Shown here piece after piece: positions 3,682-42,481 of a stretch of DNA of 64,000 bases. The notes beneath the pieces were generated by a model, which saw only the letters and a list, made by a program, of their open reading frames with translations, did not search any database and had not been told where the DNA came from. How positions within the stretch are numbered: the stretch's first letter is position 1; every line of letters begins with the position of its first letter. This DNA is from Bacillota bacterium (GTDB lineage Bacteria; Bacillota_I; Bacilli_A; RF39; UBA660). Location of the stretch: the NCBI GenBank assembly GCA_015059445.1, contig SVAK01000003.1, positions 55,058 through 119,057 of the forward strand. Reading direction: 5' to 3'. The translations under genes were made by a program, and so were the position numbers.

Positions 3682-3706
3682 AAAAAAATCCTGGAAGGAT
3701 TTATTT
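3682..3706. terminator. Bidirectional terminator between convergent genes
   Basis: Stem AAATCCT(3686-3692)/AGGATTT(3696-3702) with loop GGA, an A-run upstream and a T-run downstream. Confidence 0.6.
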
Positions 3707-4210
3707 GTTAAATTTAACAGTAATATACATTTCTTTGTCATATAATTCTTGAACGCTTCTAATAATTGAATTCGCTTTTTCATTATTGTGATCAGAAGAT
3801 GCAACAACAATACTAATTGTATTATCTTTAATTTTTACAAAAGCATTTAATTTAAATTTTTCATTAATTAATTCTTTAATTTTATTTTCATTAGCAGTAG
3901 AATCGTTTAATTTTTGCATGTTTTCATAAGCCGCATTTTTTTCTTCTATTGTACTTTCGCCATCTAATAGAATATCTTGATATTCCTCCATTAAAGTTTG
4001 TTTTTCTTCATCTTTTTCTACTTCCAAGGAAACTAGAATATCTGATTCAGTTATTTCAATTACTTCATTAGTATTATTATTTTCTTCAGTTTTTAATACT
4101 TGAGCAACCTCATCATCGATACTGACATAGTAAATTCCCAAAATTAATATTAAAGAAAATAGAGTTATAAACCACAAATTTTGTTTATTTATCATTAAAT
4201 CTCTCCTCAT
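3701..4210 (-). CDS. Hypothetical membrane-anchored acidic protein
   Basis: 169 aa. There is an N-terminal TM helix (WFITLFSLILILGIYYV), then a Glu-rich linker and a C-terminal beta-rich domain. It is divergent from the ABC exporter. Function unknown. Confidence 0.5.
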   Translation of the reverse strand: MRRDLMINKQNLWFITLFSLILILGIYYVSIDDEVAQVLKTEENNNTNEVIEITESDILVSLEVEKDEEKQTLMEEYQDILLDGESTIEEKNAAYENMQKLNDSTANENKIKELINEKFKLNAFVKIKDNTISIVVASSDHNNEKANSIIRSVQELYDKEMYITVKFNK

Positions 4211-7978: not shown

Positions 7979-8236
7979 ATGATGAAAAATTTACATTTTA
8001 GAGATAGCTTTAAAAATTTTTTGTTTGATTTAGAAGATTTCATAACTATATATGAAAATCATTTGCATGTTTTTAACTATCAAAAATTAAACAATTTAAG
8101 TGAAACAGAAATAATTTTAAGTTTTAATAAAATGAAAGTAATAATAAGTGGAGTGAATTTAAAAATAAAACAAATGACTAAACAGGAACTTTTGATAAAT
8201 GGCAAAATTTTGAAAGTAGAGTTTTCTTATGTATAG
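7979..8236 (+). CDS. yqfC: YqfC-like sporulation protein
   Basis: 85 aa. The C-terminal pattern ISGVNLKIKQMTKQELLINGKI is typical of YqfC, and the gene precedes a yqfD homolog. Confidence 0.55.
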   Translation: MMKNLHFRDSFKNFLFDLEDFITIYENHLHVFNYQKLNNLSETEIILSFNKMKVIISGVNLKIKQMTKQELLINGKILKVEFSYV

Positions 8237-9395
8237 AGAAAAAATTATATGGATTAAAATTGAAACTAATAACTATTACAAAGTTTTAATTAAATTGAAT
8301 AATATTGGAGTTACTTTATATGATAATGAAAAAATTAAAGATTGCATTTTGATTAAGACAACTTATTCCGATTATAAAAGAATAAAAAGGTATTTAGTTA
8401 GTTATAAAATATCTATTTATAGTAGCTCTGGATTAGAGAAAACTTTAGGAATTTTAAAAAAATATGAAGTGTTTGTAGTAAGTATTATTATTGGAATAAT
8501 TATTTTATTTTTGGCTAATAATATGATTTTTAAAGTTGAAGTAAAAAGTTCTAATAAAGGCATTCAAGAATTGCTTGTTAGAGAATTAAACCAATATGGG
8601 TTAGGAAAAATGAAATTAAAAAAAAATCATAAGAAAGTTGAATTGATTGTAAATAAAATATTGGATGATAATAAAGATAATTTAGAATGGCTAGAAGTTA
8701 AATATGAAGGTTTAATTATGATAGTTAATGTTACAGAGAAAACAAAAACGGAAAATAGTGAAGAATATCCAAGATGTAATATAGTAGCTAGTACTGATGC
8801 CAAAATAACTAGTTTAAATATTTATCGGGGAGTCCCTTTAAAAGAAATTAACGATTATGTTTTAAAAGGTGAGGTTATATTAAGTGGTGATATAATACAT
8901 AATGAGGAAATAAAAAACACAGTTTGTGCTAGTGGAGAGATTTATGGAGAAGTTTGGTATAATGTAAAAGTTGAAATTCCTTTTAAAGAAAGTTATGTAA
9001 AATACACTGGAAAGAATAGATATAATTTAAGTATTGAATTGGATGATAATAAATATCAAATATTTAGAAGTAGAATCATGAAAATGAAAGAAGAGAAGAC
9101 AAATTTATATAAATTAAATGATTTTGAAATTAATTTGGTTAAAGAAAAAGAATATATTACTGAAACGAAAATTTTAAGTGAAGAAGAAGCTTATAATAAA
9201 GGCATAAACAAAGCTTTAGAAAAAGTTAATTTAACTTTAGAAGATAATGAAGAAATATTGCTTAAAAAAGTTTTGAAAAAAGATGTAAATGATAGTAAAA
9301 TATATTTAGAGATATTTATTGTAACAAAAGAGAATATTGGGGTGTTACAAGTAGTTCGAGAGGAAGTTGAAAATGGTGTCGAATCTAATACTTAA
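8229..9395 (+). CDS. yqfD: YqfD-like (stage IV sporulation) membrane protein
   Basis: 388 aa with a single TM helix near residue 80. The architecture is YqfD-like and the gene sits in the yqfC-yqfD-...-ybeY-dgkA-era-recO synteny. Confidence 0.55.
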   Translation: MYREKIIWIKIETNNYYKVLIKLNNIGVTLYDNEKIKDCILIKTTYSDYKRIKRYLVSYKISIYSSSGLEKTLGILKKYEVFVVSIIIGIIILFLANNMIFKVEVKSSNKGIQELLVRELNQYGLGKMKLKKNHKKVELIVNKILDDNKDNLEWLEVKYEGLIMIVNVTEKTKTENSEEYPRCNIVASTDAKITSLNIYRGVPLKEINDYVLKGEVILSGDIIHNEEIKNTVCASGEIYGEVWYNVKVEIPFKESYVKYTGKNRYNLSIELDDNKYQIFRSRIMKMKEEKTNLYKLNDFEINLVKEKEYITETKILSEEEAYNKGINKALEKVNLTLEDNEEILLKKVLKKDVNDSKIYLEIFIVTKENIGVLQVVREEVENGVESNT

Positions 9396-31928: not shown

Positions 31929-32079
31929 AGTAAATTTGCTAGTAAGTAACAAATATTAAAACTAAAGTGTTTAAATTTAGAAAACAAATTGACTGAATTT
32001 AATTTATGCATGTACTAGAACAAAGTAAATATGCATAAATAATTATAAAAAATATTTGCATAATAATACTGGTGATTAT

Positions 32080-32838
32080 ATGAATTATCAAACTGCAATA
32101 TCTTTTGGATTAGTACATATACCTGTACTTATGAATAGCGCTATTAAAAATAATGATATATCTTTTAATATGTTACATAAAAAGTGTGGTGAGAAATTAG
32201 AATATATTAGATATTGTCCCAGCTGTAAAGAAAAAGTTAAAAATGCTGAGATTGAAAAAGGATATGAGTATACTGACGATAATTTTATAACGTTTACTGA
32301 AGATGATTTTGATAAATTAAAAAGTGAAAATGATAAAGTAATAGAAATTATTTCTTTTGTAGATATTTCTGACATAGATCCAATTTATTATGATAAGAGT
32401 TATACATTAACTCCTAATAAAAGCACTAAATCATTTAATTTATTTAAAGAAGCTTTAAGGAAAAGTAAAAAGGTAGCAATTGCGAAAACATATATACGTA
32501 ATAAAGCTTATTATGTTGTAATTAGATTTGGCTATGAAAATATAATCATGGATACACTTTATTATGAAGAAGAAATAAAAATGCAAAAAGAAAAAACTAA
32601 AAAGGAATTTAATGATACTGAATTGAAAACAGCTATACAACTAATTGATGCTATGAGCGATGAATTCAGGCCAGAAGAATATATTGATGAATATCAAACT
32701 AGACTTAGAAAAGCTATTGATAAAAAAATAAATGGTAAAGAAATTAAGCAGTATAAAAAGAAAAAGCAAAGGAGTATTAGCGATTTAATGACAGCGCTAG
32801 AAGAATCTTTGAGGGAACAGAAAAATGGAAAAAAATGA
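32080..32838 (+). CDS. ku: Ku protein (NHEJ DNA end-binding)
   Basis: Counted from the ATG at 32080, the product begins MNYQTAISFGLVHIPVLMNSA..., which is a Ku core. There is a Lys-rich C-terminal tail. Confidence 0.85.
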   Translation: MNYQTAISFGLVHIPVLMNSAIKNNDISFNMLHKKCGEKLEYIRYCPSCKEKVKNAEIEKGYEYTDDNFITFTEDDFDKLKSENDKVIEIISFVDISDIDPIYYDKSYTLTPNKSTKSFNLFKEALRKSKKVAIAKTYIRNKAYYVVIRFGYENIIMDTLYYEEEIKMQKEKTKKEFNDTELKTAIQLIDAMSDEFRPEEYIDEYQTRLRKAIDKKINGKEIKQYKKKKQRSISDLMTALEESLREQKNGKK

Positions 32839-33715
32839 TTTCTTAAAATTAAAACCAATGCTTTTAGACGAAATATTCAAACCATTTAACGATAAAGATT
32901 ATTTGTTTGAAATTAAATTTGATGGTATTAGATCCTTAATATTTATTGATAAGGAAAAAATATTTATAAAAAGTAGGAGAAATATTATATTAAATGATAC
33001 TTTTCCAGAATTATTAGACATTAAAAATATAAGTAACGAAACATGTATTTTTGATGGTGAAATTGTTTTACTAGAAAATGGTAAACCATCTTTTTTTAAA
33101 TTACAAGAAAGAACTAGACTTAAAAATAAATATCGTATTAATGAGATGAAAGAAAATAATCCTGTTGCTTTTATATGTTTTGATATTTTATATAAGAATA
33201 AAGATTTAACTAAATTACCACTTCTTGATAGAAAGAAAATATTAGATAAATACAATGATAATAATATTTTTATTAAATCAAAATATTTTGAAGAGAAAGG
33301 TAATGATTTATTTAAATTTGTAAAGAAAGAAAATTTGGAAGGCATTATAGCGAAGAAAAAGATGAGTAAATATTATTATAATATTAGAACTAAAGAATGG
33401 ATTAAAATAAAAAATTTTAAAGAAGAGGAATTTTATATTTCGGGATTTATTATAACTAAAAGTGATAATGTAGTCAGTGCATTATTATCAGAAAAAATTA
33501 ATAATAAATATGTTTTTGTGGGAAAAATACTTTTTAGTCATAAGAATAAAGATTATGAAAAAGTTATAAATTCAGATTCTGTTAAAAATTATTTAGAAAA
33601 TTGTGAAGATAATGCAATTTTTATTAAACCAATCTATAAATTAAAAGTTAACTATATGGAAAGAACTAAAAATAATATGTTAAGGCAACCATTTGTTAAT
33701 AAAGATAATAAATAA
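32825..33715 (+). CDS. ligD: ATP-dependent DNA ligase (ligase-domain-only LigD)
   Basis: It has motif I EIKFDGIR (KxDGxR) and an OB-fold C-terminus. 296 aa, overlapping the ku stop. Confidence 0.8.
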   Translation: MEKNDFLKLKPMLLDEIFKPFNDKDYLFEIKFDGIRSLIFIDKEKIFIKSRRNIILNDTFPELLDIKNISNETCIFDGEIVLLENGKPSFFKLQERTRLKNKYRINEMKENNPVAFICFDILYKNKDLTKLPLLDRKKILDKYNDNNIFIKSKYFEEKGNDLFKFVKKENLEGIIAKKKMSKYYYNIRTKEWIKIKNFKEEEFYISGFIITKSDNVVSALLSEKINNKYVFVGKILFSHKNKDYEKVINSDSVKNYLENCEDNAIFIKPIYKLKVNYMERTKNNMLRQPFVNKDNK

Positions 33716-35219: not shown

Positions 35220-36941
35220 ATGAGCGTAATAAAAGTAATGAGTGAAAATTTAGCTAATAAAATTGCTGCAGGTGAAGTTGTCGAAAAATGCGCATCTGTT
35301 GTAAAAGAACTTGTGGAAAATAGTATTGATGCTAAAGCTCAAAGTATTAAGATAAATTTACTTAAAGGCGGATTAGAAGAAATTACAGTCATAGATGATG
35401 GAACTGGTATGGATGAAAGTGATGCAATACTTGCTTTTCAAAGGCATGCTACTAGTAAAATTTATAAAGATGATGATTTATTTTTTATTGATACTTTAGG
35501 ATTTCGTGGTGAAGCATTACCATCAATTGCATCAGTTTCTGAAGTTGTTTTAGAAACTTGTCAAAAAGATGTTGGTACCCTTATTCATATTAAAGGTGGT
35601 ATGTTAATAGAAAAAAGTAACAGTAGTGCGCGTATAGGAACCAGAATTACTATAACTAATTTGTTTTTTAATACACCAGCTAGATTAAAATATTTAAAAA
35701 GCGAGCAAACAGAACTGGCTAATACTGTATCTTTTATTGAAAAATTGTCTTTAGCTAAACCAGATATTTCATTTACTTTAACCAATAATGGAAGTGTGAT
35801 TGTTAAAACTAGTGGAAGTGGCAATTTAATAAAAACTATTCATGAAATATATGGATTGCAAGTATCAAGTAAAATGTTAGAAATTAAAGCTTTAAACGAT
35901 GATTTTGAAATTAAAGGATTTATATGTAAACCAGAAATACTTAAGGCTAGTAGAAATCATCTAATTACTTTTATTAATGGAAGAGTAGTTAAAAATAATG
36001 ATATTAATCGCGCGATTAATGATGCATATTATACATATAAACCTGATGGTAAATATCCAATTGTTGTAATTAACATTGAAACTGATCCAACTTTAGTAGA
36101 TGTAAATATTCATCCAACTAAACAAGATGTTAAGTTGAGCAAAATAGATTCTTTATATAATTTGATTTATGAAACTATGAAAAGAAGATTGTATGATAGT
36201 TTATTAATACCGGATGCAATTTCCAAAAAAGATATTGATAAAATAAAAGATAGTTTTGCGCCAGTAGAGAATTACAAAGAAGTAGAAATAAAACAAACTA
36301 CTTTTGACTTTGGTGAAAATAATTCTTCTGAAGTAGTAAAAAACGAAGAATTCAAAAGTTTAGTTTTATATCCGATTGGACTAGCACATGGTACTTATAT
36401 TATTTGTGAAAATGATGAAGGACTATATTTACTTGATCAACATGCTGCTCAAGAGCGAGTAAATTATGAAAAATATTTAGAAAATTTAAAAAATGAGGCA
36501 GTAAATATAACTAGCATGTTAGTTCCAATTAATATTGAATTTTCTCAAAGTGAATATATTACATTTGTAAAGAACTCTAATATATTCGAAAATATGGGAT
36601 TTGAATGGGTAGAATTTGGAATTAATACTGTTTCTGTTAAAGCACACCCCACTTGGTTAAAAACTGGTTATGAAGAGGAATCAATTAGAAAAATAATCGA
36701 TTTAATAATTACTATGAATAATGATTTTGATGTAATTAAATTTAGAGAAAATGTGGCAATAACATTGGCTTGCAAAATGGCAATTAAAGCTAATGAACAT
36801 ATTTCGATGATGGAAATAGAAGGGCTCCTTAAAAATTTAGTTAAGTGCGATAATCCTTATAATTGTCCACATGGCAGGCCCACAATTATTAAATTTAGTA
36901 TATATGATTTAGAAAAAATGTTTAAAAGAGCAATGAATTAA
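35220..36941 (+). CDS. mutL: DNA mismatch repair protein MutL
   Basis: It has a GHKL ATPase N-terminus (ENSIDA..., GTGM) and a C-terminal endonuclease motif DQHAAQERVNYE. Confidence 0.9.
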   Translation: MSVIKVMSENLANKIAAGEVVEKCASVVKELVENSIDAKAQSIKINLLKGGLEEITVIDDGTGMDESDAILAFQRHATSKIYKDDDLFFIDTLGFRGEALPSIASVSEVVLETCQKDVGTLIHIKGGMLIEKSNSSARIGTRITITNLFFNTPARLKYLKSEQTELANTVSFIEKLSLAKPDISFTLTNNGSVIVKTSGSGNLIKTIHEIYGLQVSSKMLEIKALNDDFEIKGFICKPEILKASRNHLITFINGRVVKNNDINRAINDAYYTYKPDGKYPIVVINIETDPTLVDVNIHPTKQDVKLSKIDSLYNLIYETMKRRLYDSLLIPDAISKKDIDKIKDSFAPVENYKEVEIKQTTFDFGENNSSEVVKNEEFKSLVLYPIGLAHGTYIICENDEGLYLLDQHAAQERVNYEKYLENLKNEAVNITSMLVPINIEFSQSEYITFVKNSNIFENMGFEWVEFGINTVSVKAHPTWLKTGYEEESIRKIIDLIITMNNDFDVIKFRENVAITLACKMAIKANEHISMMEIEGLLKNLVKCDNPYNCPHGRPTIIKFSIYDLEKMFKRAMN

Positions 36942-37283
36942 TTAATATATTTGATTTTTTGGTATATACTTTTATTTACACTTTTTTTACATCAACCTTT
37001 AATTTATTTTTATCTTATAGTCTTAATCATTATATAATTTATGCATATGATAGTTATTAATTTTTAATATAATTTTGAAAGGGTGAAATTAATAAATGTC
37101 GAAGAAACAAAAGAAAAATTAGGAGAAAAGCTACTATTTCTGATACTAGTGGGTTTAGACCAGCATATTAATATACGAGAGTCCGTTGCTTGGCAACTCT
37201 TTGAAAAAAACAATGAGTATATAAAATGATACTTTTTATTAGATAATAAATTAACAATTTTAAAATTATAGGAGATGATAGTA

Positions 37284-37916
37284 ATGTTAGGAAAAGATCA
37301 ATTAGAAATATATAAAAAACAAATAAAAAACAATCCGCAATTAGAAGAAGTTCTTTCTTTTTGTAATTTTGAATTTAGGGATAATATTGATGTAAAAGAA
37401 GACATATTAATTTGCGGTGAAGAAAGCAATTATGAAATTTATCCATTTGGTAAAGATGGTTGTGGATGTACTTATGCATTATTAAACAACCAATATGTTG
37501 GTTTTATCTCAAGTGCAGGTGGTTGTGGTATTATTGCAAACAACATAAAAGATTTTTTTAATTTTTTAGCTGTTATTAAAAACATAGAATCTTATTTTGT
37601 AAAAGGAGTTTTTGATAATTTGGAAAATTTTAATGATACGTTTAAAATGGCATCAGAAGATTTTTTGGATTCAATAACAAGATTTGGAAATTATTCATAT
37701 GATGTTTCAATTCAAGCTTTAGAAAAATTTATTATAGATAATGGTTTTGTAACTGATAATGCTATTATGTATGAAAAATTAAAATCAGCTCTTATTACTG
37801 AACCATCATTTGTGCTTCGCGCAGATCCTAGCGAATATGAACCATGGGATGATGTTTTTTATACTAATCAAAAATACATCAATGAATTAAGAGAAAAAAA
37901 AGTTAACCATGATTAG
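37284..37916 (+). CDS. Hypothetical protein, tentatively SMI1/KNR4 (SUKH)-like
   Basis: The segment FGKDGCGCTYALLNNQYVGFISSAGG resembles the G-DG-G core of SUKH immunity-type proteins. The likely start is the ATG at 37284, which follows an AGGAG RBS. Confidence 0.4.
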   Translation: MLGKDQLEIYKKQIKNNPQLEEVLSFCNFEFRDNIDVKEDILICGEESNYEIYPFGKDGCGCTYALLNNQYVGFISSAGGCGIIANNIKDFFNFLAVIKNIESYFVKGVFDNLENFNDTFKMASEDFLDSITRFGNYSYDVSIQALEKFIIDNGFVTDNAIMYEKLKSALITEPSFVLRADPSEYEPWDDVFYTNQKYINELREKKVNHD

Positions 37917-37991
37917 ATAAAAATTAAATGAAAAGCCTTAAAACTTGAAAAAAATAGGTAGTTATAATAAAATAAATTTAGGTGAAAGAGT

Positions 37992-38423
37992 ATGAAAGAC
38001 ATTTTAAATGAATTTAAAAAATTTATTTCAAGAGGTAACGTATTAGATTTAGCTGTAGGTGTTATTATCGGTAGTGCTTTTAGTGGTATTGTAACATCTT
38101 TAGTAAATAACATATTTACGCCATTAATTGGAATTATATTTGGTGGTGTTGATTTTTCGGGATTATCTATTACCATTAGGAATGCGCAAATTATGTATGG
38201 AGCTTTTTTGCAAAGTGTATTCGATTTTTTAATTACAGCAGTTTGTTTATTCATAATAGTAAAAATAATTAATAAAATTAATAATGACTTATTGCAAAAA
38301 ACAAAGAAAAAAAACGAAGAAGAAAAAGTGGAAGTACCTAAAAAAAGTGATGATATAATATTACTTGAAGAAATTAGAGATTTATTAAAAGATAATAATA
38401 AAAAGAAAGGAAAGAGCAAATAA
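37992..38423 (+). CDS. mscL: Large-conductance mechanosensitive channel
   Basis: It carries the MscL signature FISRGNVLDLAVGVIIGSAFSGIVTSLVNNIFTPLIG. Confidence 0.92.
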   Translation: MKDILNEFKKFISRGNVLDLAVGVIIGSAFSGIVTSLVNNIFTPLIGIIFGGVDFSGLSITIRNAQIMYGAFLQSVFDFLITAVCLFIIVKIINKINNDLLQKTKKKNEEEKVEVPKKSDDIILLEEIRDLLKDNNKKKGKSK

Positions 38424-38635
38424 TGTTAGAAAATATATTATATTTGGTTGGCGGTTTAGTGGGAGGCTTAATTTTAGGGTTCTTTTTAGCAAGATTCTTT
38501 ATGAAAAAGTATTTAACTAAAAATCCTCCAATTAACGAAAAAATGATTGAAACCATGATGAGTAGTATGGGAAGAAAACCAAGTCAAAAACAAGTTAAAC
38601 AAGTTATGAATCAAATGAATAGACTCAATAAATAA
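38423..38635 (+). CDS. yneF: UPF0154/YneF-family small membrane protein
   Basis: 70 aa. It has the TM helix LYLVGGLVGGLILGFFLARFF, then ...NPPINEKMI...MGRKPSQKQ. Confidence 0.7.
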   Translation: MLENILYLVGGLVGGLILGFFLARFFMKKYLTKNPPINEKMIETMMSSMGRKPSQKQVKQVMNQMNRLNK

Positions 38636-38648
38636 TTTGATAATAATA

Positions 38649-38677
38649 TTGTCAATTGAAAAAATATTTGGTATATT
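38649..38677 (+). promoter_or_regulatory. Promoter of the T-box leader
   Basis: TTGTCA (38649-38654), a 17-nt spacer, then TGgTATATT as an extended -10 (38669-38677). Confidence 0.5.
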
Positions 38678-38683
38678 AATGGC

Positions 38684-38885
38684 ATAAATCGATGAAGAAA
38701 GATTAGTAGCTATAGAAGTTTTTTTAGAGAGTTAGTGGATGGTGAAAACTAATAAAAAAGAAATAGTGAATCTACTTTCTGAGAGTATTTAATAAATAAC
38801 GGGTAGTTTACGTTATAAACTAATAAGTAATATATTGGATGGTACCGCAGAATTGCTCCTTGAGTTTTTTGCGGTTTTTTATTTT
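38684..38885 (+). promoter_or_regulatory. T-box riboswitch leader with a serine (UCU) specifier
   Basis: It has the GA motif ATCGATGAAG, the AGAGAG plus GTGGATGGTGAAAAC Stem-I distal elements, and GAA-UCU-A as a specifier-loop candidate (38768-38774). The T-box sequence AATATATTGGATGGTACCGCAG lies at 38829-38850. The terminator is ACCGCAG...TTGCGGT followed by a T-run. Confidence 0.65.
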
Positions 38886-38896
38886 TGGAGGTTCAT

Positions 38897-39397
38897 ATGT
38901 TAAAGAATTATATGGGAGAAGAAAAATATTTAAAAATAAAAAATAGTAGTAATGTTTTTTATAAAGCTTTGGAAATTGTCTCCATATTATTTGAAAATGA
39001 CAAAGATAAAGGCGGATGGCCATATATTTTACATTTAATTTCGGTTTATAAAAAAGTTTCGGAAGAAAATGAAAAAATAATTGCGCTTCTTCACGATGTA
39101 ATTGAAGATAAAAATGTGAGTGAACAAGATTTACTAGATATTGGCTTTTCTAAAGAAATAGTTGAATCTGTCAAATTGATTAGCAAATCGCAAGAAATTA
39201 GTTATGAAGAATATATTCATAATTTAATTATTAATGGTTCTAAACACATTTTGCGAGTGAAAATGGCTGATTTAGAAAATAATATGGATATAAGTAGAAT
39301 TAGTAATGCAGCGGAAAAAGATTATGAACGAATAGAGAAAAAATATAAACCTGCTTATTTAAGAATTAAAAACAGACTAGAAGAAATGGAGAGATAA
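38897..39397 (+). CDS. HD-domain protein, SpoT/Mesh1-like (p)ppGpp hydrolase family
   Basis: It has HLISV...ALLHDVIED, which is an HD His/Asp metal motif. The ATG at 38897 follows GGAGG, and the gene is co-directional and contiguous with serS. Confidence 0.65.
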   Translation: MLKNYMGEEKYLKIKNSSNVFYKALEIVSILFENDKDKGGWPYILHLISVYKKVSEENEKIIALLHDVIEDKNVSEQDLLDIGFSKEIVESVKLISKSQEISYEEYIHNLIINGSKHILRVKMADLENNMDISRISNAAEKDYERIEKKYKPAYLRIKNRLEEMER

Positions 39398-39399
39398 AA

Positions 39400-40692
39400 A
39401 TGATAGATATTAAATTAATAAGAGAAAATAGAGAATTAGTAAAAGAAAATATTAAGAAAAAATTTCAGGATAATAAGTTACCTTTAGTTGACGAAGTATA
39501 TGAACTTGATATTAGATATAGAGAATGTAAGAGTAAAGCAGATAATTTAAGAAGTGAAAAAAATAATTTAAGTGCATCAATTGGTGAATTAATGCGAGAT
39601 GGTAAAAAAGAAGAAGCGATGGCAATAAAAGAAAAAATTGCTTTAATTGCAAAAGAAATACCTGCACTTGAGGAAAAAGAAATAGAATTAGAAACAAAAA
39701 TTAAAGAAAAAATGATGATAATTCCTAATATAATTGCAGCTGATGTACCAGTTGGTAAAGATGATTCTGAAAATGTTGAAGAACAGGTTTTTGGAGAATG
39801 TAAAGTTCCTACATTTGAAATTCCATATCATTCTGATATTATGGCAAAATTTAATGGGTTAGATAAAGAAGCAGCGGGAAGAGTAAGTGGTAATGGTTTT
39901 TACTATTTAATGGGTGATATCGCTCGTCTTCATTCTGCTGTATTAGCATATGCAAGAGATTTTATGATAAACAAAGGATTTACATATTGTATTCCCCCTT
40001 TTATGATTAGATCTGATGCTGTAAATGGTGTAATGTCTTTTGAAGAAAAAGAAAATATGATGTATAAAATAGAAGGAGAAGATTTATATTTAATCGGTAC
40101 TTCTGAACATTCAATGATTGCAAAATTTAAAGATCAAATGTTAAAAGAAAGTGAGTTACCAATAACTATGACTTCATATTCTCCATGTTTTAGAAAAGAA
40201 GTTGGAGCACATGGAATTGAAGAAAGAGGAGTTTATAGAATACATCAATTTGAAAAACAAGAAATGATTGTAGTCTGTAGACCAGAAGAAAGTGATGCCT
40301 GGTATGAAAAAATGTGGAATTATTCAGTTGAATTATTTAGAAGTTTAGATATACCGGTTAGGAAATTAGTTTGTTGTTCTGGAGATTTAGCAGATTTAAA
40401 ATATAGATCATGTGATATAGAGGCTTGGAGTCCAAGACAACAAAAGTTTTTTGAAGTATGTTCTTGTTCTAATTTAACAGATGCTCAAGCAAGGAGACTA
40501 GCGATTAGATATAAAAAAGAAAATGGCGAAAAGGAATTTGCTCATACGCTAAATAATACAGTTATAGCACCGCCAAGAATGTTAATTGCTTTTTTAGAAA
40601 ACAATTTAAATGAAGATGGTAGTGTAAATATTCCAGTTTCTTTAAGACCATATATGGGTGGAATGGATAGAATAGTTATTAATAAAGATTAA
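39400..40692 (+). CDS. serS: Seryl-tRNA synthetase
   Basis: It has an N-terminal coiled coil and a class II core (motif 2 FRKEVGAHGIEERGVYRIHQFEKQE, motif 3 region). 430 aa. Confidence 0.92.
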   Translation: MIDIKLIRENRELVKENIKKKFQDNKLPLVDEVYELDIRYRECKSKADNLRSEKNNLSASIGELMRDGKKEEAMAIKEKIALIAKEIPALEEKEIELETKIKEKMMIIPNIIAADVPVGKDDSENVEEQVFGECKVPTFEIPYHSDIMAKFNGLDKEAAGRVSGNGFYYLMGDIARLHSAVLAYARDFMINKGFTYCIPPFMIRSDAVNGVMSFEEKENMMYKIEGEDLYLIGTSEHSMIAKFKDQMLKESELPITMTSYSPCFRKEVGAHGIEERGVYRIHQFEKQEMIVVCRPEESDAWYEKMWNYSVELFRSLDIPVRKLVCCSGDLADLKYRSCDIEAWSPRQQKFFEVCSCSNLTDAQARRLAIRYKKENGEKEFAHTLNNTVIAPPRMLIAFLENNLNEDGSVNIPVSLRPYMGGMDRIVINKD

Positions 40693-40696
40693 ATTA

Positions 40697-40724
40697 AGGA
40701 GACTTATTAAAAAGTCTCTTTTAT
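40697..40724 (+). terminator. Terminator after serS
   Basis: Stem GAGACTT/AAGTCTC with loop ATTAAA, followed by a T-run. Confidence 0.7.
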
Positions 40725-40904
40725 TTATATGATGGTAACTTGATAAAGAATAATAGTACTATTATAAGAAATTGAGACATTCTCTTTTCACAATAATTTA
40801 AACAGATGCCAGGAAAATATTTAATTTTATAAATAAAAAATGTCGAAAAATATCATAAAAATAGAAGTTTTGACAACGTTTGTCGAATGTATTGAAATGC
40901 ATTT

Positions 40905-41059
40905 TTAAATAGGGTATTATCTAATCAGAAAGCGGGTTTTGGTTGAAATTATCATAAAAATTATTTTCTTTATTTATATGTTTTATCTACCCTAACTTAT
41001 CCCAAAAACAAATCCCGCTTTCAAATTATTATTGAATATGTTAAAATACGGGTTAGGAA
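40905..41059 (+). promoter_or_regulatory. Structured 5' leader of miaB with alternative pairings (candidate cis-regulatory RNA)
   Basis: TAGGGTA(40910-16) pairs with TACCCTA(40988-94). GAAAGCGGGTTTT(40928-40) pairs with AAAtCCCGCTTTC(41010-22), which gives a pseudoknot-like order. CCTAAC(40991-96) can alternatively pair with the RBS segment GTTAGG(41052-57). Confidence 0.35.
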
Positions 41060-41068
41060 GTGGTTTAT

Positions 41069-42481
41069 ATGCATTTGCCAGATTTAAATGTAGCAAAAGA
41101 TAGAACTAGTAAAGAAAATAAATATATTACATTAAATGAAAATTATCAAAGTATTTTTAAAGGTCAAAAATATTTTTTAAGAACTTATGGTTGTCAAATG
41201 AATGTTCATGATAGTGAAGCGATTAGAAGTTATTTGGAAACTTTAGGATATGTTAATACAGAAAGAATTGAAGAGGCTAATATAGTAGTTTTAAATACTT
41301 GTGCAATTAGAGAGAATGCTCGAGATAAAGTAGTTGGTTTTTTAGGGAAATGTAAATATTTGAAAAAAAATAGAGATGATTTTAAAATTGTTTTAGCAGG
41401 GTGCATGTGTGAACAACCAGATTTTGTTGAAACTATTCAACAAAATCATAAATATGTAGATTTAGTAATTGGAACTCATAATATTTACGAATTACCTAAA
41501 TTATTATTAGAACTTAATCAAAAACAAACTATTGAAGTGTATTCTAATAGTGATGAAATAATTGAAGGTATGAATTTTACAAGAGATAGTAAAGTTACTG
41601 CGTGGGTTAATATTATGTATGGATGTGATAAATTTTGTACATACTGTATTGTTCCTTATACAAGGGGAAGAGAGCGTAGTAGAAAATTAGAAGATATCCT
41701 GGAGGAAGTTAAACATTTAAAGATGGATGGTTATAAAGAAGTCACCCTTCTAGGACAAAATGTTAATGCTTATGGTCGAGATATTGGAGAGTCTTTTGCT
41801 AATTTATTAGAACAAGTTGCTAAAATAGGAATTGAAAGAATTCGTTTTGTTACATCTCATCCTTGGAATTTTACTGATGAAATGATTGATATAATAGCTA
41901 AATATGATAATATTATGCCTTATATTCATTTGCCTCTTCAATCTGGAAGCAATGAAATTTTAAAGAAAATGAATAGACGATATACTAAAGAAGAATATTT
42001 AGAATTATTTAATAAAATGAAAGAGCGTATACCAAATGTAGCAATTACCACGGATATCATTGTGGGATTTCCAAATGAAACAGAAGAAGATTTTAAAGAT
42101 ACATTAGAAGTTGTAAAAGCCTGTGAGTATGATGGGGCTTATACATTTATCTTTTCTCCAAGAGCTGGAACTCCAGCTGCTAAAATGAATGACGAAGTTT
42201 CTTTAAAAATAAAGGAAGAAAGATTATATAAATTAAATGAATTAGTAAATTATTATTCTAACAAAAATAATCAAAAATTATTAGGCAAAGTTGTGGATGT
42301 GTTAATTTTGGGTGAAAGTGAAAAAGATAACACTAAAGTTTATGGTTATACAGATACAATGAAGTTAGTTAATGTGGTAGGAAATAAAGAATTAATTGGA
42401 AAAATTGTTAAAGTAAAAATTTTTGAAGCAAAAAGTTTTAGTCTAGATGGTGAATGTGTTGAAGAATTAGCGGTGTCTTAA
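41069..42481 (+). CDS. miaB: tRNA-2-methylthio-N6-dimethylallyladenosine synthase MiaB
   Basis: It has an MTTase N-terminus (FLRTYGCQMNVHDSE), a radical SAM CTYCIVP motif and a C-terminal TRAM domain. The ATG at 41069 follows AGGAAG. Confidence 0.8.
   Translation: MHLPDLNVAKDRTSKENKYITLNENYQSIFKGQKYFLRTYGCQMNVHDSEAIRSYLETLGYVNTERIEEANIVVLNTCAIRENARDKVVGFLGKCKYLKKNRDDFKIVLAGCMCEQPDFVETIQQNHKYVDLVIGTHNIYELPKLLLELNQKQTIEVYSNSDEIIEGMNFTRDSKVTAWVNIMYGCDKFCTYCIVPYTRGRERSRKLEDILEEVKHLKMDGYKEVTLLGQNVNAYGRDIGESFANLLEQVAKIGIERIRFVTSHPWNFTDEMIDIIAKYDNIMPYIHLPLQSGSNEILKKMNRRYTKEEYLELFNKMKERIPNVAITTDIIVGFPNETEEDFKDTLEVVKACEYDGAYTFIFSPRAGTPAAKMNDEVSLKIKEERLYKLNELVNYYSNKNNQKLLGKVVDVLILGESEKDNTKVYGYTDTMKLVNVVGNKELIGKIVKVKIFEAKSFSLDGECVEELAVS

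What the first reader, a model, noticed from the sequence alone, without database searches (positions are those of the whole stretch)
40893..41068. Long structured miaB leader with mutually exclusive helices, one of which sequesters the RBS
The 367-nt gap between the serS terminator (40697-40724) and miaB contains several paired elements. TAGGGTA(40910-16) pairs with TACCCTA(40988-94). GAAAGCGGGTTTTGG(40928-42) pairs with CCAAAAACAAATCCCGCTTTC(41002-22). These interleave as a-b-a'-b', a pseudoknot-like order. The CCTAAC part of a' (40991-96) can alternatively pair with GTTAGG(41052-57) inside the miaB Shine-Dalgarno region GGGTTAGGAAG. A perfect palindrome AAATGCATTT (40893-40902) lies just upstream. 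This architecture is typical of a ligand- or protein-responsive translational switch. I do not recognise it as a known riboswitch class.
Basis: seen in the sequence. Interest (0 to 1): 0.55.

Follow-up and report, generated by a model that had tools for sequence, protein, structure and literature searches.

The report
Sporulation-controlled hairpin RNA upstream of miaB

Summary
Only one proposed helix is real. GAAAGCGGGTTTTGG (40928-42) pairs with 41002-22. This pairing recurs in about 20 lineages of low-GC gut Bacilli between serS and miaB, with compensatory and G·U changes specific to the miaB strand.

Helix a/a' and the a'/RBS pairing show no conservation. 'a' lies inside a promoter, upstream of the predicted transcript start.

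Anatomy of the conserved module:
- Two or three TGTCGAA boxes, the Spo0A "0A box" core.
- Sigma-A-type promoter P1.
- A predicted start within a few bases of the 5' arm.
- A G-depleted, variable loop of 50-120 nt.
- The 3' arm.
- 17 nt further on, an extended -10 promoter P2, then the RBS and miaB.

P2 also occurs in relatives that lack the module, so miaB has its own promoter downstream of 41022. No Rfam family matches.

Best reading: a Spo0A-controlled promoter makes a 5'-end-protected hairpin RNA, and read-through adds sporulation-linked miaB transcription. A stand-alone sRNA is a close rival.

The Spo0A link fits the old, unexplained rise of ms2i6A at sporulation in B. subtilis. Transcript starts, Spo0A binding and read-through are all inferred.

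The parts
40696..40721 (+). serS intrinsic terminator. It marks the upstream limit and separates serS transcription from the module.
   Evidence: Terminator scan: 10-bp stem, 6-nt loop, T-rich tail.
40841..40847 (+). Distal 0A box, TGTCGAA (perfect Spo0A core motif).
   Evidence: A second same-strand perfect box lies at -130..-48 in 10 of 20 lineage representatives, against 0.2% expected per locus. Motif identity from PMC3485338.
40871..40876 (+). TTGACA within TTTTGACAAC: a conserved -35-like or degenerate box, 10 nt before the proximal 0A box.
   Evidence: Conserved as TTTGACAA/TTTGACAT in many relatives. Role unknown.
40881..40887 (+). Proximal 0A box, TGTCGAA, 4 nt upstream of the P1 -35.
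   Evidence: Present in loci found through the protein (L001 twice, L005, L020); L006 has TGTCCAA. Its invariance in L084-L199 is by construction of the search pattern.
40892..40920 (+). Promoter P1: -35 TTGAAA (40892-97), 17-nt spacer, -10 TATTAT (40915-20).
   Evidence: Promoter scan, (10 of 12 matches). The same geometry (TTGCAA/TTGAAA, 17 nt, TAnAAT) holds in all homologues.
40927..40928 (+). Predicted P1 transcription start (A40927 or G40928).
   Evidence: Inferred from the distance to the -10. Across the family, 6-8 bases separate the -10 from the G of GAAAGC, so the predicted start lies 0-3 nt upstream of that G. Not measured.
40928..40942 (+).
   Evidence: Nearly invariant across the family. 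In the minimum-energy fold it pairs with 41002-22.
40943..41001 (+). G-depleted, sequence-variable loop.
   Evidence: Summed over 44 elements (each trimmed by 20 nt at both ends): A 1331, C 570, G 139, T 1469, while the host loci have positive GC skew. The window's trimmed interior has 1 G and 9 C in 55 nt. TACCCT and TATCCC are enriched.
41002..41022 (+).
   Evidence: Variable in sequence but complementary to its own 5' arm. Cognate versus non-cognate duplex energy: -19.7 versus -17.5 kcal/mol, p = 1e-4. Distal-helix covariation.
41039..41047 (+). Promoter P2: extended -10, TGTTAAAAT. The -35 position coincides with TTTCAA at the end of the 3' arm. Predicted start about 41054.
   Evidence: TG before the -10. 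TGnTAnAAT lies 24-30 nt before the ATG in nearly all relatives, including those without the module.
41055..41071 (+). miaB ribosome-binding site AGGAAGTGG (41055-63) and start codon ATG (41069-71).
   Evidence: MiaB equivalog TIGR01574, 539 bits. The distance from the 3' arm end to the ATG is 45-51 nt across the family.

Best explanation
The flagged interval is the core of a conserved module of about 210 bp. The module is a transcription unit of its own, placed between serS and the housekeeping promoter of miaB in a clade of low-GC, apparently spore-forming gut Bacilli.

Anatomy. Two or three Spo0A-type 0A boxes (TGTCGAA) lie directly upstream of a sigma-A-type promoter, P1. The transcript is predicted to start at or just before the first base of GAAAGCGGGUUUUGG. 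This 5' arm pairs with a 3' arm 60-130 nt downstream. Together they close a G-poor, A/U/C-rich loop of variable length and sequence. Exactly 17 nt after the 3' arm lies the extended -10 of P2, the ancestral miaB promoter.

Proposed mechanism:
1. Spo0A~P controls P1 at entry into stationary phase or sporulation. Activation is the more likely direction, given boxes at about -41 to -47.
2. A stem anchored at the RNA's 5' end shields it from 5'-end-dependent decay. The G-poor loop gives the C-rich 3' arm no rival partner inside the RNA. The P1 product is therefore a stable hairpin RNA.
3. The tail after the stem is only moderately U-rich. Part of the P1 transcripts therefore run on through P2 into miaB. 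This adds sporulation-linked miaB mRNA with a protected 5' end on top of constitutive P2 mRNA.

Shown here: conservation, synteny, stem covariation and strand asymmetry, G depletion, 0A-box enrichment, P2 conservation, and sporulation genes in the window.

Inferred: both transcription starts, Spo0A binding and its direction of effect, read-through, and stabilisation.
For: Family and synteny. Five loci were found through the MiaB protein and about 70 low-GC contigs through a DNA pattern. All share the same order of parts between serS and miaB.

The stem:
- It is in the minimum-energy fold of all 18 predicted transcripts tested, with z from -1.4 to -5.6.
- Cognate arms pair better than non-cognate arms, p = 1e-4 with 16 lineages.
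- In the distal helix, 88% of cells are paired against 79% in shuffles. Covariation score is 0.266 against 0.130 (0 of 500 shuffles). Four pairs change on both sides. One pair is G·U in 8 of 15 sequences and G-C in 7.
- The plus strand gives the more stable duplex in 18 of 20 cases.
- L006 keeps 17 pairs despite changes in the otherwise invariant proximal stem.

The interior holds G 139 against C 570, opposite to the positive GC skew of the host loci.

P1 geometry is conserved.

0A boxes. TGTCGAA is the Spo0A core motif in Bacillus and Clostridioides (PMC3485338). A second perfect same-strand box occurs in 10 of 20 lineages, against 0.2% expected. L171 has three boxes phased by 10 bp.

The window encodes YqfD and a SpoIIIAH-like protein, plus Ku with an ATP-dependent ligase.

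P2 is present in relatives that lack the module. The distance from the 3' arm to the ATG is fixed at 45-51 nt.

Biology. In B. subtilis, ms2i6A is low in exponential growth and high in stationary phase and sporulation, and no regulon is known for ymcB/miaB (PMC2952846).
Against: - No transcript data exist. Both starts are read from promoter geometry.
- P1 has a near-consensus -35, 17-nt spacing and a good -10. It could be constitutive, and the boxes could repress rather than activate.
- No spo0A gene was seen in the DNA I hold (the query sequence came from memory).
- My metagenome pattern required TTGTCGAA and GAAAGCGG. Their invariance among L084-L199 is therefore by construction.
- Stand-alone copies are followed by their own terminators: L006 (called by the scan) and, by eye only, L171 element 1 and L119. 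In these lineages the hairpin RNA is kept without being a miaB leader. This favours the sRNA rival.
- L171 element 2 (8-bp stem, 21-nt loop, UUUUAUUUU) looks like a real terminator. That would block read-through there.
- The model does not explain the near-invariance of the 5' arm sequence or the exact 17-nt coupling to P2.
- The lineages are related, so the permutation p-values are optimistic.
Confidence: 0.4

Rival explanations
1. A stand-alone, Spo0A-controlled small RNA. P1 makes a 95-160 nt RNA that ends at or just after the terminal stem. Its unpaired, G-poor loop carries C-run motifs (UAYCCCU, CUUUC). It acts in trans on G-rich ribosome-binding regions or on a protein. miaB is only a syntenic neighbour, expressed from P2.
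For: - Copies detached from miaB keep P1, arms and G-poor loop, and have their own downstream terminator. L006 is called by the scan. L171 element 1 has AGTAAGA-N7-TCTTACTTTTTT by eye. L119 is also by eye.
- P2 is independent and ancestral.
- C-run 6-mers are enriched in the loop: TACCCT in 6 of 20 against 0.5 expected, TATCCC and ATCCCT in 5 of 20.
- The tail after the stem is moderately U-rich in many lineages, with 9-11 T in 16 nt.
Against: - Most copies, including the window's, have no canonical terminator. The window tail is AAAUUAUUAUUG.
- Loop sequence and length are poorly conserved for a seed region.
- The best-conserved segment, the 5' arm, is sequestered in the stem.
- The exact 17-nt spacing to the P2 -10 and the near-universal adjacency to miaB suggest coupling in cis.
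- No target was identified.
Confidence: 0.3
2. Negative control of miaB. P1 transcription, or the C>G rut-like loop recruiting Rho, interferes with or occludes P2. The 3' arm and U-rich tail sit in the P2 -35/spacer region. When P1 fires, miaB goes down.
For: - The end of the 3' arm lies at the P2 -35 position, with 17-nt spacing to the -10 in 13 of the 14 lineages I read (by eye; window).
- The loop is C-rich and G-poor over 50-120 nt, the composition typical of Rho loading sites (my knowledge).
- L171 element 2 looks like a promoter followed at once by a terminator, abutting P2.
Against: - It runs against the B. subtilis precedent, where ms2i6A rises at sporulation.
- C is only modestly enriched (16%); the main signal is loss of G.
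- No rho gene or Rho dependence was examined.
- Detached copies (L006, L171 element 1) cannot act on P2.
Confidence: 0.1
3. One reading: one long miaB leader that forms a pseudoknot (a-b-a'-b'). Helix a' alternatively pairs with the Shine-Dalgarno region, giving a ligand- or protein-responsive translational switch.
For: - The strings exist and b/b' is real.
- In the L090 family, a 15-18 nt stretch of the loop is complementary to the RBS and start codon (-22.3 kcal/mol, z = -3.9). In L199, z = -2.1.
- The window and L001b share CCTAAC/GTTAG(G).
Against: - 'a' lies in the P1 spacer/-10, upstream of the predicted start. It varies while a' is kept, with no cognate signal (p = 0.42).
- Interior against RBS: p = 0.24 with 16 lineages, and most z-scores are near 0.
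- No conserved core: the loop spans 21-123 nt.
- A conserved promoter, P2, lies between the element and the RBS.
- No Rfam hit.
Confidence: 0.06
4. A DNA-level element: an inverted repeat that serves as a pair of protein-binding sites, or the ends of a decayed miniature transposable element, rather than an RNA stem.
For: - The outermost 6-7 bp of both arms (TGAAAG...CTTTCA) are nearly invariant. Free RNA covariation would not require this.
- The arms sit at fixed positions relative to P1 (+1) and P2 (-35).
- Duplications and insertions cluster here (L001, L006, L171).
Against: - One copy per locus in fixed synteny, and none elsewhere in 64 kb.
- The arms differ by bulges and indels, and many positions are G·U on the plus strand, which would be A·C mismatches on the other strand.
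- The distance between the arms ranges from 21 to about 130 nt, which does not fit a fixed protein geometry.
- The G depletion is strand-specific.
Confidence: 0.05

Closest known systems
Spo0A-dependent sigma-A promoters with 0A boxes (spoIIG/spoIIE type in B. subtilis; spo0A and sigH upstream regions in C. difficile)
   Same: Perfect TGTCGAA core motifs (PMC3485338). They are multiple, same-strand, roughly one helical turn apart, and end just upstream of the -35 of a sigma-A-type promoter.
   Different: P1 has near-consensus hexamers with 17-nt spacing. The classical Spo0A-activated promoters have defective spacing (my knowledge). The downstream product is a hairpin RNA and miaB, not a sporulation gene. 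Binding was not tested.
5'-terminal stabiliser structures of Bacillus mRNAs (5' stem-loops such as the aprE leader; STAB-SD GAAAGGAGG of cryIIIA); recalled from my own knowledge
   Same: The stem begins within 0-3 nt of the predicted 5' end. The 5' arm GAAAGCGGG resembles GAAAGGAGG, and some 3' arms (CUCCUUUC) resemble the 16S 3' end. The expected effect is protection from 5'-end-dependent decay.
   Different: The stem is closed over a loop of 50-120 nt instead of being a compact hairpin. The partner is intramolecular, not the ribosome. No half-life data exist.
Firmicute sRNAs with unpaired C-run motifs (RsaE/RoxS and other UCCC-motif RNAs) and sporulation-controlled sRNAs (B. subtilis SurA/SurC/CsfG; C. 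difficile SpoX/SpoY); from my own knowledge
   Same: Its own promoter, a size of about 100-160 nt, a G-poor unpaired region with enriched C-runs, and control linked to sporulation.
   Different: No sequence or structure match to any Rfam model. There is usually no separate terminator. The loop is poorly conserved. It is physically fused to the miaB promoter.
Type I toxin mRNAs with 5'-3' long-distance pairing
   Same: The 5' end pairs with a distant 3' segment. In L171, the same kind of 0A-box promoter drives a toxin-like 27-aa hydrophobic ORF with such end pairing.
   Different: The miaB-proximal element has no conserved ORF, start codon or RBS inside; it contains almost no G.
Riboswitches and T-box leaders
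   Same: A structured RNA upstream of a gene of tRNA metabolism. A genuine T-box lies 2 kb upstream, before serS.
   Different: No conserved binding core, no conserved expression platform, and a promoter lies between the element and the gene.

Membership tests
   The enclosed region is 21-123 nt and alignable only within close relatives. Only short C-run motifs recur.
   Interior against its own RBS versus other lineages' RBSs: p = 0.24 (16 lineages). Only the L090 family (z = -3.9) and L199 (z = -2.1) stand out.
   The conserved extended -10 promoter P2 lies between the 3' arm and the RBS. Read-through from P1 is possible but not measured.
H-type pseudoknot a-b-a'-b' | Both helices lie in one transcript and both are maintained in relatives | tested here: not met
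   'a' lies in the P1 spacer/-10, upstream of the predicted start. It changes without compensation, with no cognate signal (p = 0.42).
Any described RNA family (Rfam 15) | Covariance-model match | tested here: not met
   Nothing at the gathering threshold in the window. Only chance-level hits with E >= 0.8 in window 40700-41100 and in L089.
Spo0A-regulated promoter | One or more 0A boxes (TGTCGAA core) at or near the promoter | tested here: met
   Window 40841-47 and 40881-87. Second boxes are enriched, P about 3e-22 ignoring phylogeny. Motif from PMC3485338.
Spo0A-regulated promoter | The organism encodes Spo0A and sporulates | tested here: inconclusive
   Sporulation genes YqfD and SpoIIIAH-like are in the window. 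No spo0A was found in the DNA held. The whole genome is not available.
Spo0A-regulated promoter | Spo0A~P binds and changes transcription | not testable with these tools
   Needs EMSA or footprinting and a reporter assay.
Intrinsic terminator | Compact G+C-rich hairpin (loop 3-8 nt) followed at once by a U tract | tested here: not met
   The scan calls only the serS terminator in window 40600-41200. The window stem encloses 59 nt and the tail is AAAUUAUUAUUG. L171 element 2 comes close (8-bp stem, 21-nt loop, UUUUAUUUU) but is not called.
5'-terminal stabiliser stem | The stem begins within about 4 nt of the RNA 5' end | tested here: met
   Met by prediction only. Across the family, 6-8 bases separate the P1 -10 from the G of GAAAGC, which puts the predicted start 0-3 nt before that G.
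5'-terminal stabiliser stem | It increases transcript half-life | not testable with these tools
   Needs rifampicin chase with and without stem mutations.
Trans-acting C-rich sRNA (RsaE/RoxS-like) | An independent transcript with its own promoter and terminator | tested here: inconclusive
   The promoter is present. A terminator is present only in detached copies: L006, and L171 element 1 and L119 by eye.
Trans-acting C-rich sRNA (RsaE/RoxS-like) | Homology to the family model | tested here: not met
   No Rfam match.
MITE / IS remnant | Dispersed copies with terminal inverted repeats and target duplications | tested here: not met
   A single copy in the window. Fixed serS-miaB synteny. No dispersed copies: the only second hairpin copies are local, in L001 and L171, and the one hit elsewhere (L171 2266-2341) is a related promoter, not a hairpin.

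The most novel reading that the evidence does not exclude
In a clade of uncultured spore-forming gut Bacilli, the sporulation master regulator Spo0A is wired directly to tRNA methylthiolation. The link is a dedicated 0A-box promoter whose transcript is a hairpin RNA of a previously undescribed family: a stem anchored at the predicted 5' end, a nearly G-less giant loop, and a 3' arm fused to the miaB promoter. If true, this would be the "regulatory element that remains to be discovered" behind the growth-phase switch from i6A to ms2i6A that has been known in Bacillus since the 1970s. The hairpin would be a new kind of sporulation RNA, acting in cis, in trans, or both.
Probability: 0.3. Interest if true: 0.7.

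Novelty: new variant of a known kind. Interest (0 to 1): 0.55.

Why it matters
MiaB converts i6A37 to ms2i6A37 in tRNAs that read UNN codons. In B. subtilis this modification rises sharply at stationary phase and sporulation. [quoted passage not shown]

Here miaB is preceded by a promoter with several perfect Spo0A boxes and by a strongly conserved RNA stem, in organisms that carry sporulation genes. This gives a concrete hypothesis for how cell differentiation is coupled to the decoding properties of tRNA. It can be tested with reporter fusions in B. subtilis and with Spo0A-DBD binding assays.

The finding also adds a conserved, unannotated structured RNA with an unusual anatomy to a poorly studied group of gut bacteria.

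Tried and rejected
The signal appears only with the predicted transcript boundaries.
- Rfam at gathering and at permissive thresholds found nothing.
- Repeat or mobile-element idea: the arm words are unique in the window. nhmmer found one copy per locus, apart from the local duplications in L001 and L171.
- Helix a/a' and the palindrome are not conserved.
- RBS sequestration looked significant with 32 redundant sequences. The signal vanished after reducing to 16 lineages.
- A column-wise alignment of the full arms was unusable, because the 3' arms differ by bulges. I used duplex-energy tests and an anchored distal-helix alignment instead.
- Small-ORF idea: the loop has almost no G, hence almost no start codons or SD. 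UUG-initiated frames are not conserved (read).
- A general promoter type? TGTCGAA-box promoters are otherwise absent from 848 kb of low-GC loci, apart from one in L171.
- A 0A box upstream of miaB in other Bacilli? None in the Bacillaceae loci. The hits in L007 and L009 are coincidental and lie inside an RBS next to a LexA box.
- tblastn with a B. subtilis Spo0A sequence written from memory found only receiver-domain hits in the DNA held.
- Literature search for "upstream of miaB" found nothing relevant.
- From memory only, I noted that TGAAAGCG...CGCTTTCA looks like a split cre palindrome and that GAAAGCGGG resembles STAB-SD. I did not test these and treat them as probable coincidences.
- The terminator scans did not call the AT-rich hairpins that I see by eye after L171 element 1 and after L119.
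Full report
**Context.** The window is about 25% G+C with a strong positive GC skew, and most genes are on the + strand.
- ORF 39400-40692 is serS (TIGR00414, 410 bits).
- ORF 41069-42481 is miaB (TIGR01574, 539 bits).
- The window also encodes YqfD (stage IV sporulation protein, 187 bits), a SpoIIIAH-like protein, and Ku plus an ATP-dependent ligase. The organism therefore looks like an endospore former.
- The closest genomes are uncultured "Bacilli", "Mollicutes" or "Tenericutes" MAGs from animal guts. The best MiaB identity is 79%.

**Checking the observation.**
- TAGGGTA and its complement occur at chance frequency.
- GAAAGCGGG occurs only at the two arms in 64 kb.

**Homologues.**
- A MiaB-based scan of one genome per species returned 80 loci. 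In most of the 40 closest, the gap upstream of miaB is only 30-110 nt.
- BLASTN and nhmmer with the window's intergenic region hit L001 (two copies), L005, L006 and L020.
- An exact-protein look-up found the same species on other contigs. One of them, L082, switches to a divergent serS/P1 allele just before the 5' arm.
- A pattern built from the conserved left half, run against metagenome contigs, returned 116 stretches. About 70 are low-GC contigs with the same architecture. The rest are high-GC chance matches.
- serS lies upstream and miaB downstream in nearly all of them. MiaB is only 61-84% identical to the window's protein, so the family spans considerable divergence.

**Anatomy**, from left to right:
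1. One to three TGTCGAA boxes, the last one 4 nt before the -35. TTTGACA(A/T) often lies one helical turn upstream.
2. P1: TTGCAA or TTGAAA, 17 nt, TAnAAT. In the window this is 40892-40920.
3. After 6-8 further bases, (T)GAAAGCGGGTTTTGG. The transcript is therefore predicted to begin at or up to 3 nt before the first base of the 5' arm.
4. An interior of 50-120 nt, poorly conserved in sequence.
5. A 3' arm ending in CTTTCA.
6. Exactly 17 nt later (13 of the 14 lineages I read), the hexamer of an extended -10 promoter, TGnTAnAAT (P2). In the window this is TGTTAAAAT, 41039-47.
7. The RBS and ATG, 45-51 nt after the 3' arm.

P2 occupies the same position relative to the ATG in relatives that lack the module. 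It is therefore the ancestral miaB promoter.

**The stem is real, and it is an RNA stem on the miaB strand.**
- All 18 predicted transcripts fold with the terminal stem in the minimum-energy structure. z ranges from -1.4 to -5.6; the window gives -17.0 kcal/mol, z = -3.60.
- The 5' arm is almost invariant. The 3' arm varies, with bulges, but matches its own partner. Cognate versus non-cognate duplex energy is -19.7 versus -17.5 kcal/mol, p = 1e-4 for 16 lineages.
- I built a distal-helix alignment anchored on UUUGG/YCAAA. In it, 88% of cells pair, against 79% in shuffles. The covariation score is 0.266 against 0.130 (0 of 500 shuffles). Four pairs change on both sides (for example U-A to C-G, A-U and G-C). 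One pair is G·U in 8 sequences and G-C in 7. Slid controls collapse to 21-53% paired.
- The + strand duplex is the more stable one in 18 of 20 cases.
- The lineages are related, so these p-values are optimistic. Even so, the individual compensatory changes are hard to explain otherwise: L100 CUAAU/AUUAG, L090 UGGA/UCCA, L097 GAUUUGG/CCAAAU(G), and L006 C-G to U-A inside the conserved proximal stem.

**The loop is G-depleted.** Summed over 44 elements, each trimmed by 20 nt at both ends, it holds A 1331, C 570, G 139 and T 1469. The host loci have GC skews of +0.07 to +0.36. C-run hexamers are enriched: TACCCT, TATCCC and ATCCCT.

**What is not supported.**
- Arm 'a' lies in the P1 spacer/-10. 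It changes freely while a' is kept. The region upstream of the start shows no cognate complementarity to the interior (p = 0.42).
- Interior-RBS complementarity looked significant with redundant sequences. It is not significant with 16 lineages (p = 0.24). Shuffle z-scores are near zero except in the L090 family (z = -3.9) and L199 (z = -2.1).
- There is no Rfam match.

**The boxes.** TGTCGAA is the core Spo0A-binding motif (0A box), shared by Bacillus and Clostridioides (PMC3485338).
- My metagenome pattern demanded the proximal box. The loci found through the protein carry it independently (L006 has one mismatch).
- Second boxes, which the pattern did not demand, occur on the same strand at -130..-48 in 10 of 20 lineages. 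The expected rate is 0.2% per locus, and none occur on the other strand.
- L171 has three perfect boxes phased by 10 bp before its miaB-proximal element. A further three-box promoter elsewhere in L171 drives a type-I-toxin-like 27-aa ORF.
- Otherwise this promoter type is absent from 848 kb of related DNA.
- Bacillaceae miaB loci have no box. This agrees with the report that B. subtilis ymcB is not in the Spo0A regulon.

**Leader or separate RNA?**
- For read-through: most tails are only moderately U-rich and start with A. The scan calls no terminator at the window's element. Detached copies have an extra terminator, as if the stem alone were not enough.
- For a separate RNA: detached copies keep all features without abutting miaB. 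These are L006 (terminator called at 1686-1717) and, by eye, L171 element 1 and L119. L171 element 2 (GAAAGCGA, 21 nt, UCGCUUUC, UUUUAUUUU) looks like a promoter-proximal terminator.
- I therefore rank a combined model first at 0.4: a Spo0A-controlled P1 makes a hairpin RNA with a protected 5' end, and partial read-through boosts miaB. The pure sRNA model is a close rival at 0.3.
- Neither model explains the near-invariant 5' arm sequence or the exact 17-nt coupling of the 3' arm to the P2 -10. I record both as unexplained.

**Comparison with what is known.**
- P1 works like a Spo0A-box promoter. Membership rests on the motif only; binding is untested.
- The stem works like a 5'-terminal stabiliser or like the closing helix of an sRNA. 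It is not a member of any described RNA family.
- It fails the defining features of a riboswitch, a pseudoknot, an intrinsic terminator (in the window) and a mobile element.
- The biological fit is the long-known rise of ms2i6A at sporulation in B. subtilis, for which no regulator is known (PMC2952846).

**Verdict.** The feature is real and conserved, and it is new as a family. Interest is moderate to good because of the Spo0A-miaB link. Every mechanistic step still needs transcript and binding data.

Noticed in passing
window 38683-38863 (+): A T-box leader (RF00230) scores 77.7 bits, E = 1.3e-16, below Rfam's gathering score of 93, so the default scan missed it. It lies upstream of a 170-aa HD/RelA-SpoT-like ORF (38885-39397) and serS, and probably controls that pair.
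   Followed up: partly
L171 2266-2341 (- strand) and downstream to about 2050: A third promoter of the same type (three perfect TGTCGAA boxes, TTGCAA, TATAAT) drives an RNA whose 5' and 3' ends are complementary. It encodes a 27-aa hydrophobic peptide, (M)NEDLYLLVVILILVIYGTNNKKGANK, which looks like a type I toxin. It lies next to an XRE-like gene.
   Followed up: partly
L082 1-840 (ENA ERZ27248306 k141_2241274): This contig of the same species has MiaB 100% identical, and its DNA is identical to the window from about GAAAGCGGG onward. Its serS side is a divergent allele (71% over the part present) and its P1 sequence differs. This is either recombination between strains or an assembly chimera, with the switch point inside the element. 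Its serS-P1 spacer also holds a GC-richer hairpin with a T-run at 430-505.
   Followed up: partly
L001 825-1850: Two copies of the whole P1-hairpin module flank about 600 bp of ORF fragments, including a winged-HTH (HTH_24) piece. Only the second copy abuts P2 and miaB.
   Followed up: partly
L007 2700-2900 and L009 2700-2910: In these relatives, miaB is preceded by a divergent lexA, a Gram-positive SOS box (CGAACACTTGTTTG / CGAACACACGTTCG) and a small membrane ORF, a YneA-like arrangement. Their TGTCGAA lies inside the RBS region and is coincidental.
   Followed up: no
window 3701-4210 (-), 8229-9395 (+), 32056-33715 (+): SpoIIIAH-like, YqfD, and Ku plus an ATP-dependent ligase. These genes are typical of sporulation and spores, so this very low-GC "Bacilli" MAG lineage is or was an endospore former.
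   Followed up: partly
window 37060-37230 (+): In the mutL-downstream spacer there is an 8-codon ORF (ATGTCGAAGAAACAAAAGAAAAATTAG) behind a good RBS (GAAAGGGTG). A GC-richer stretch of about 90 nt follows it, and the Rfam E-value search over 36900-38900 returned nothing in this stretch. Its TGTCGAA is part of the start codon region.
   Followed up: no
L006 1492-1720: A FemAB-family gene on the opposite strand has been inserted between the hairpin module and miaB. The detached module keeps a fully paired 17-bp stem, with compensating changes in the normally invariant part (GGAAGUGGG / CUUACUUUC).
   Followed up: partly
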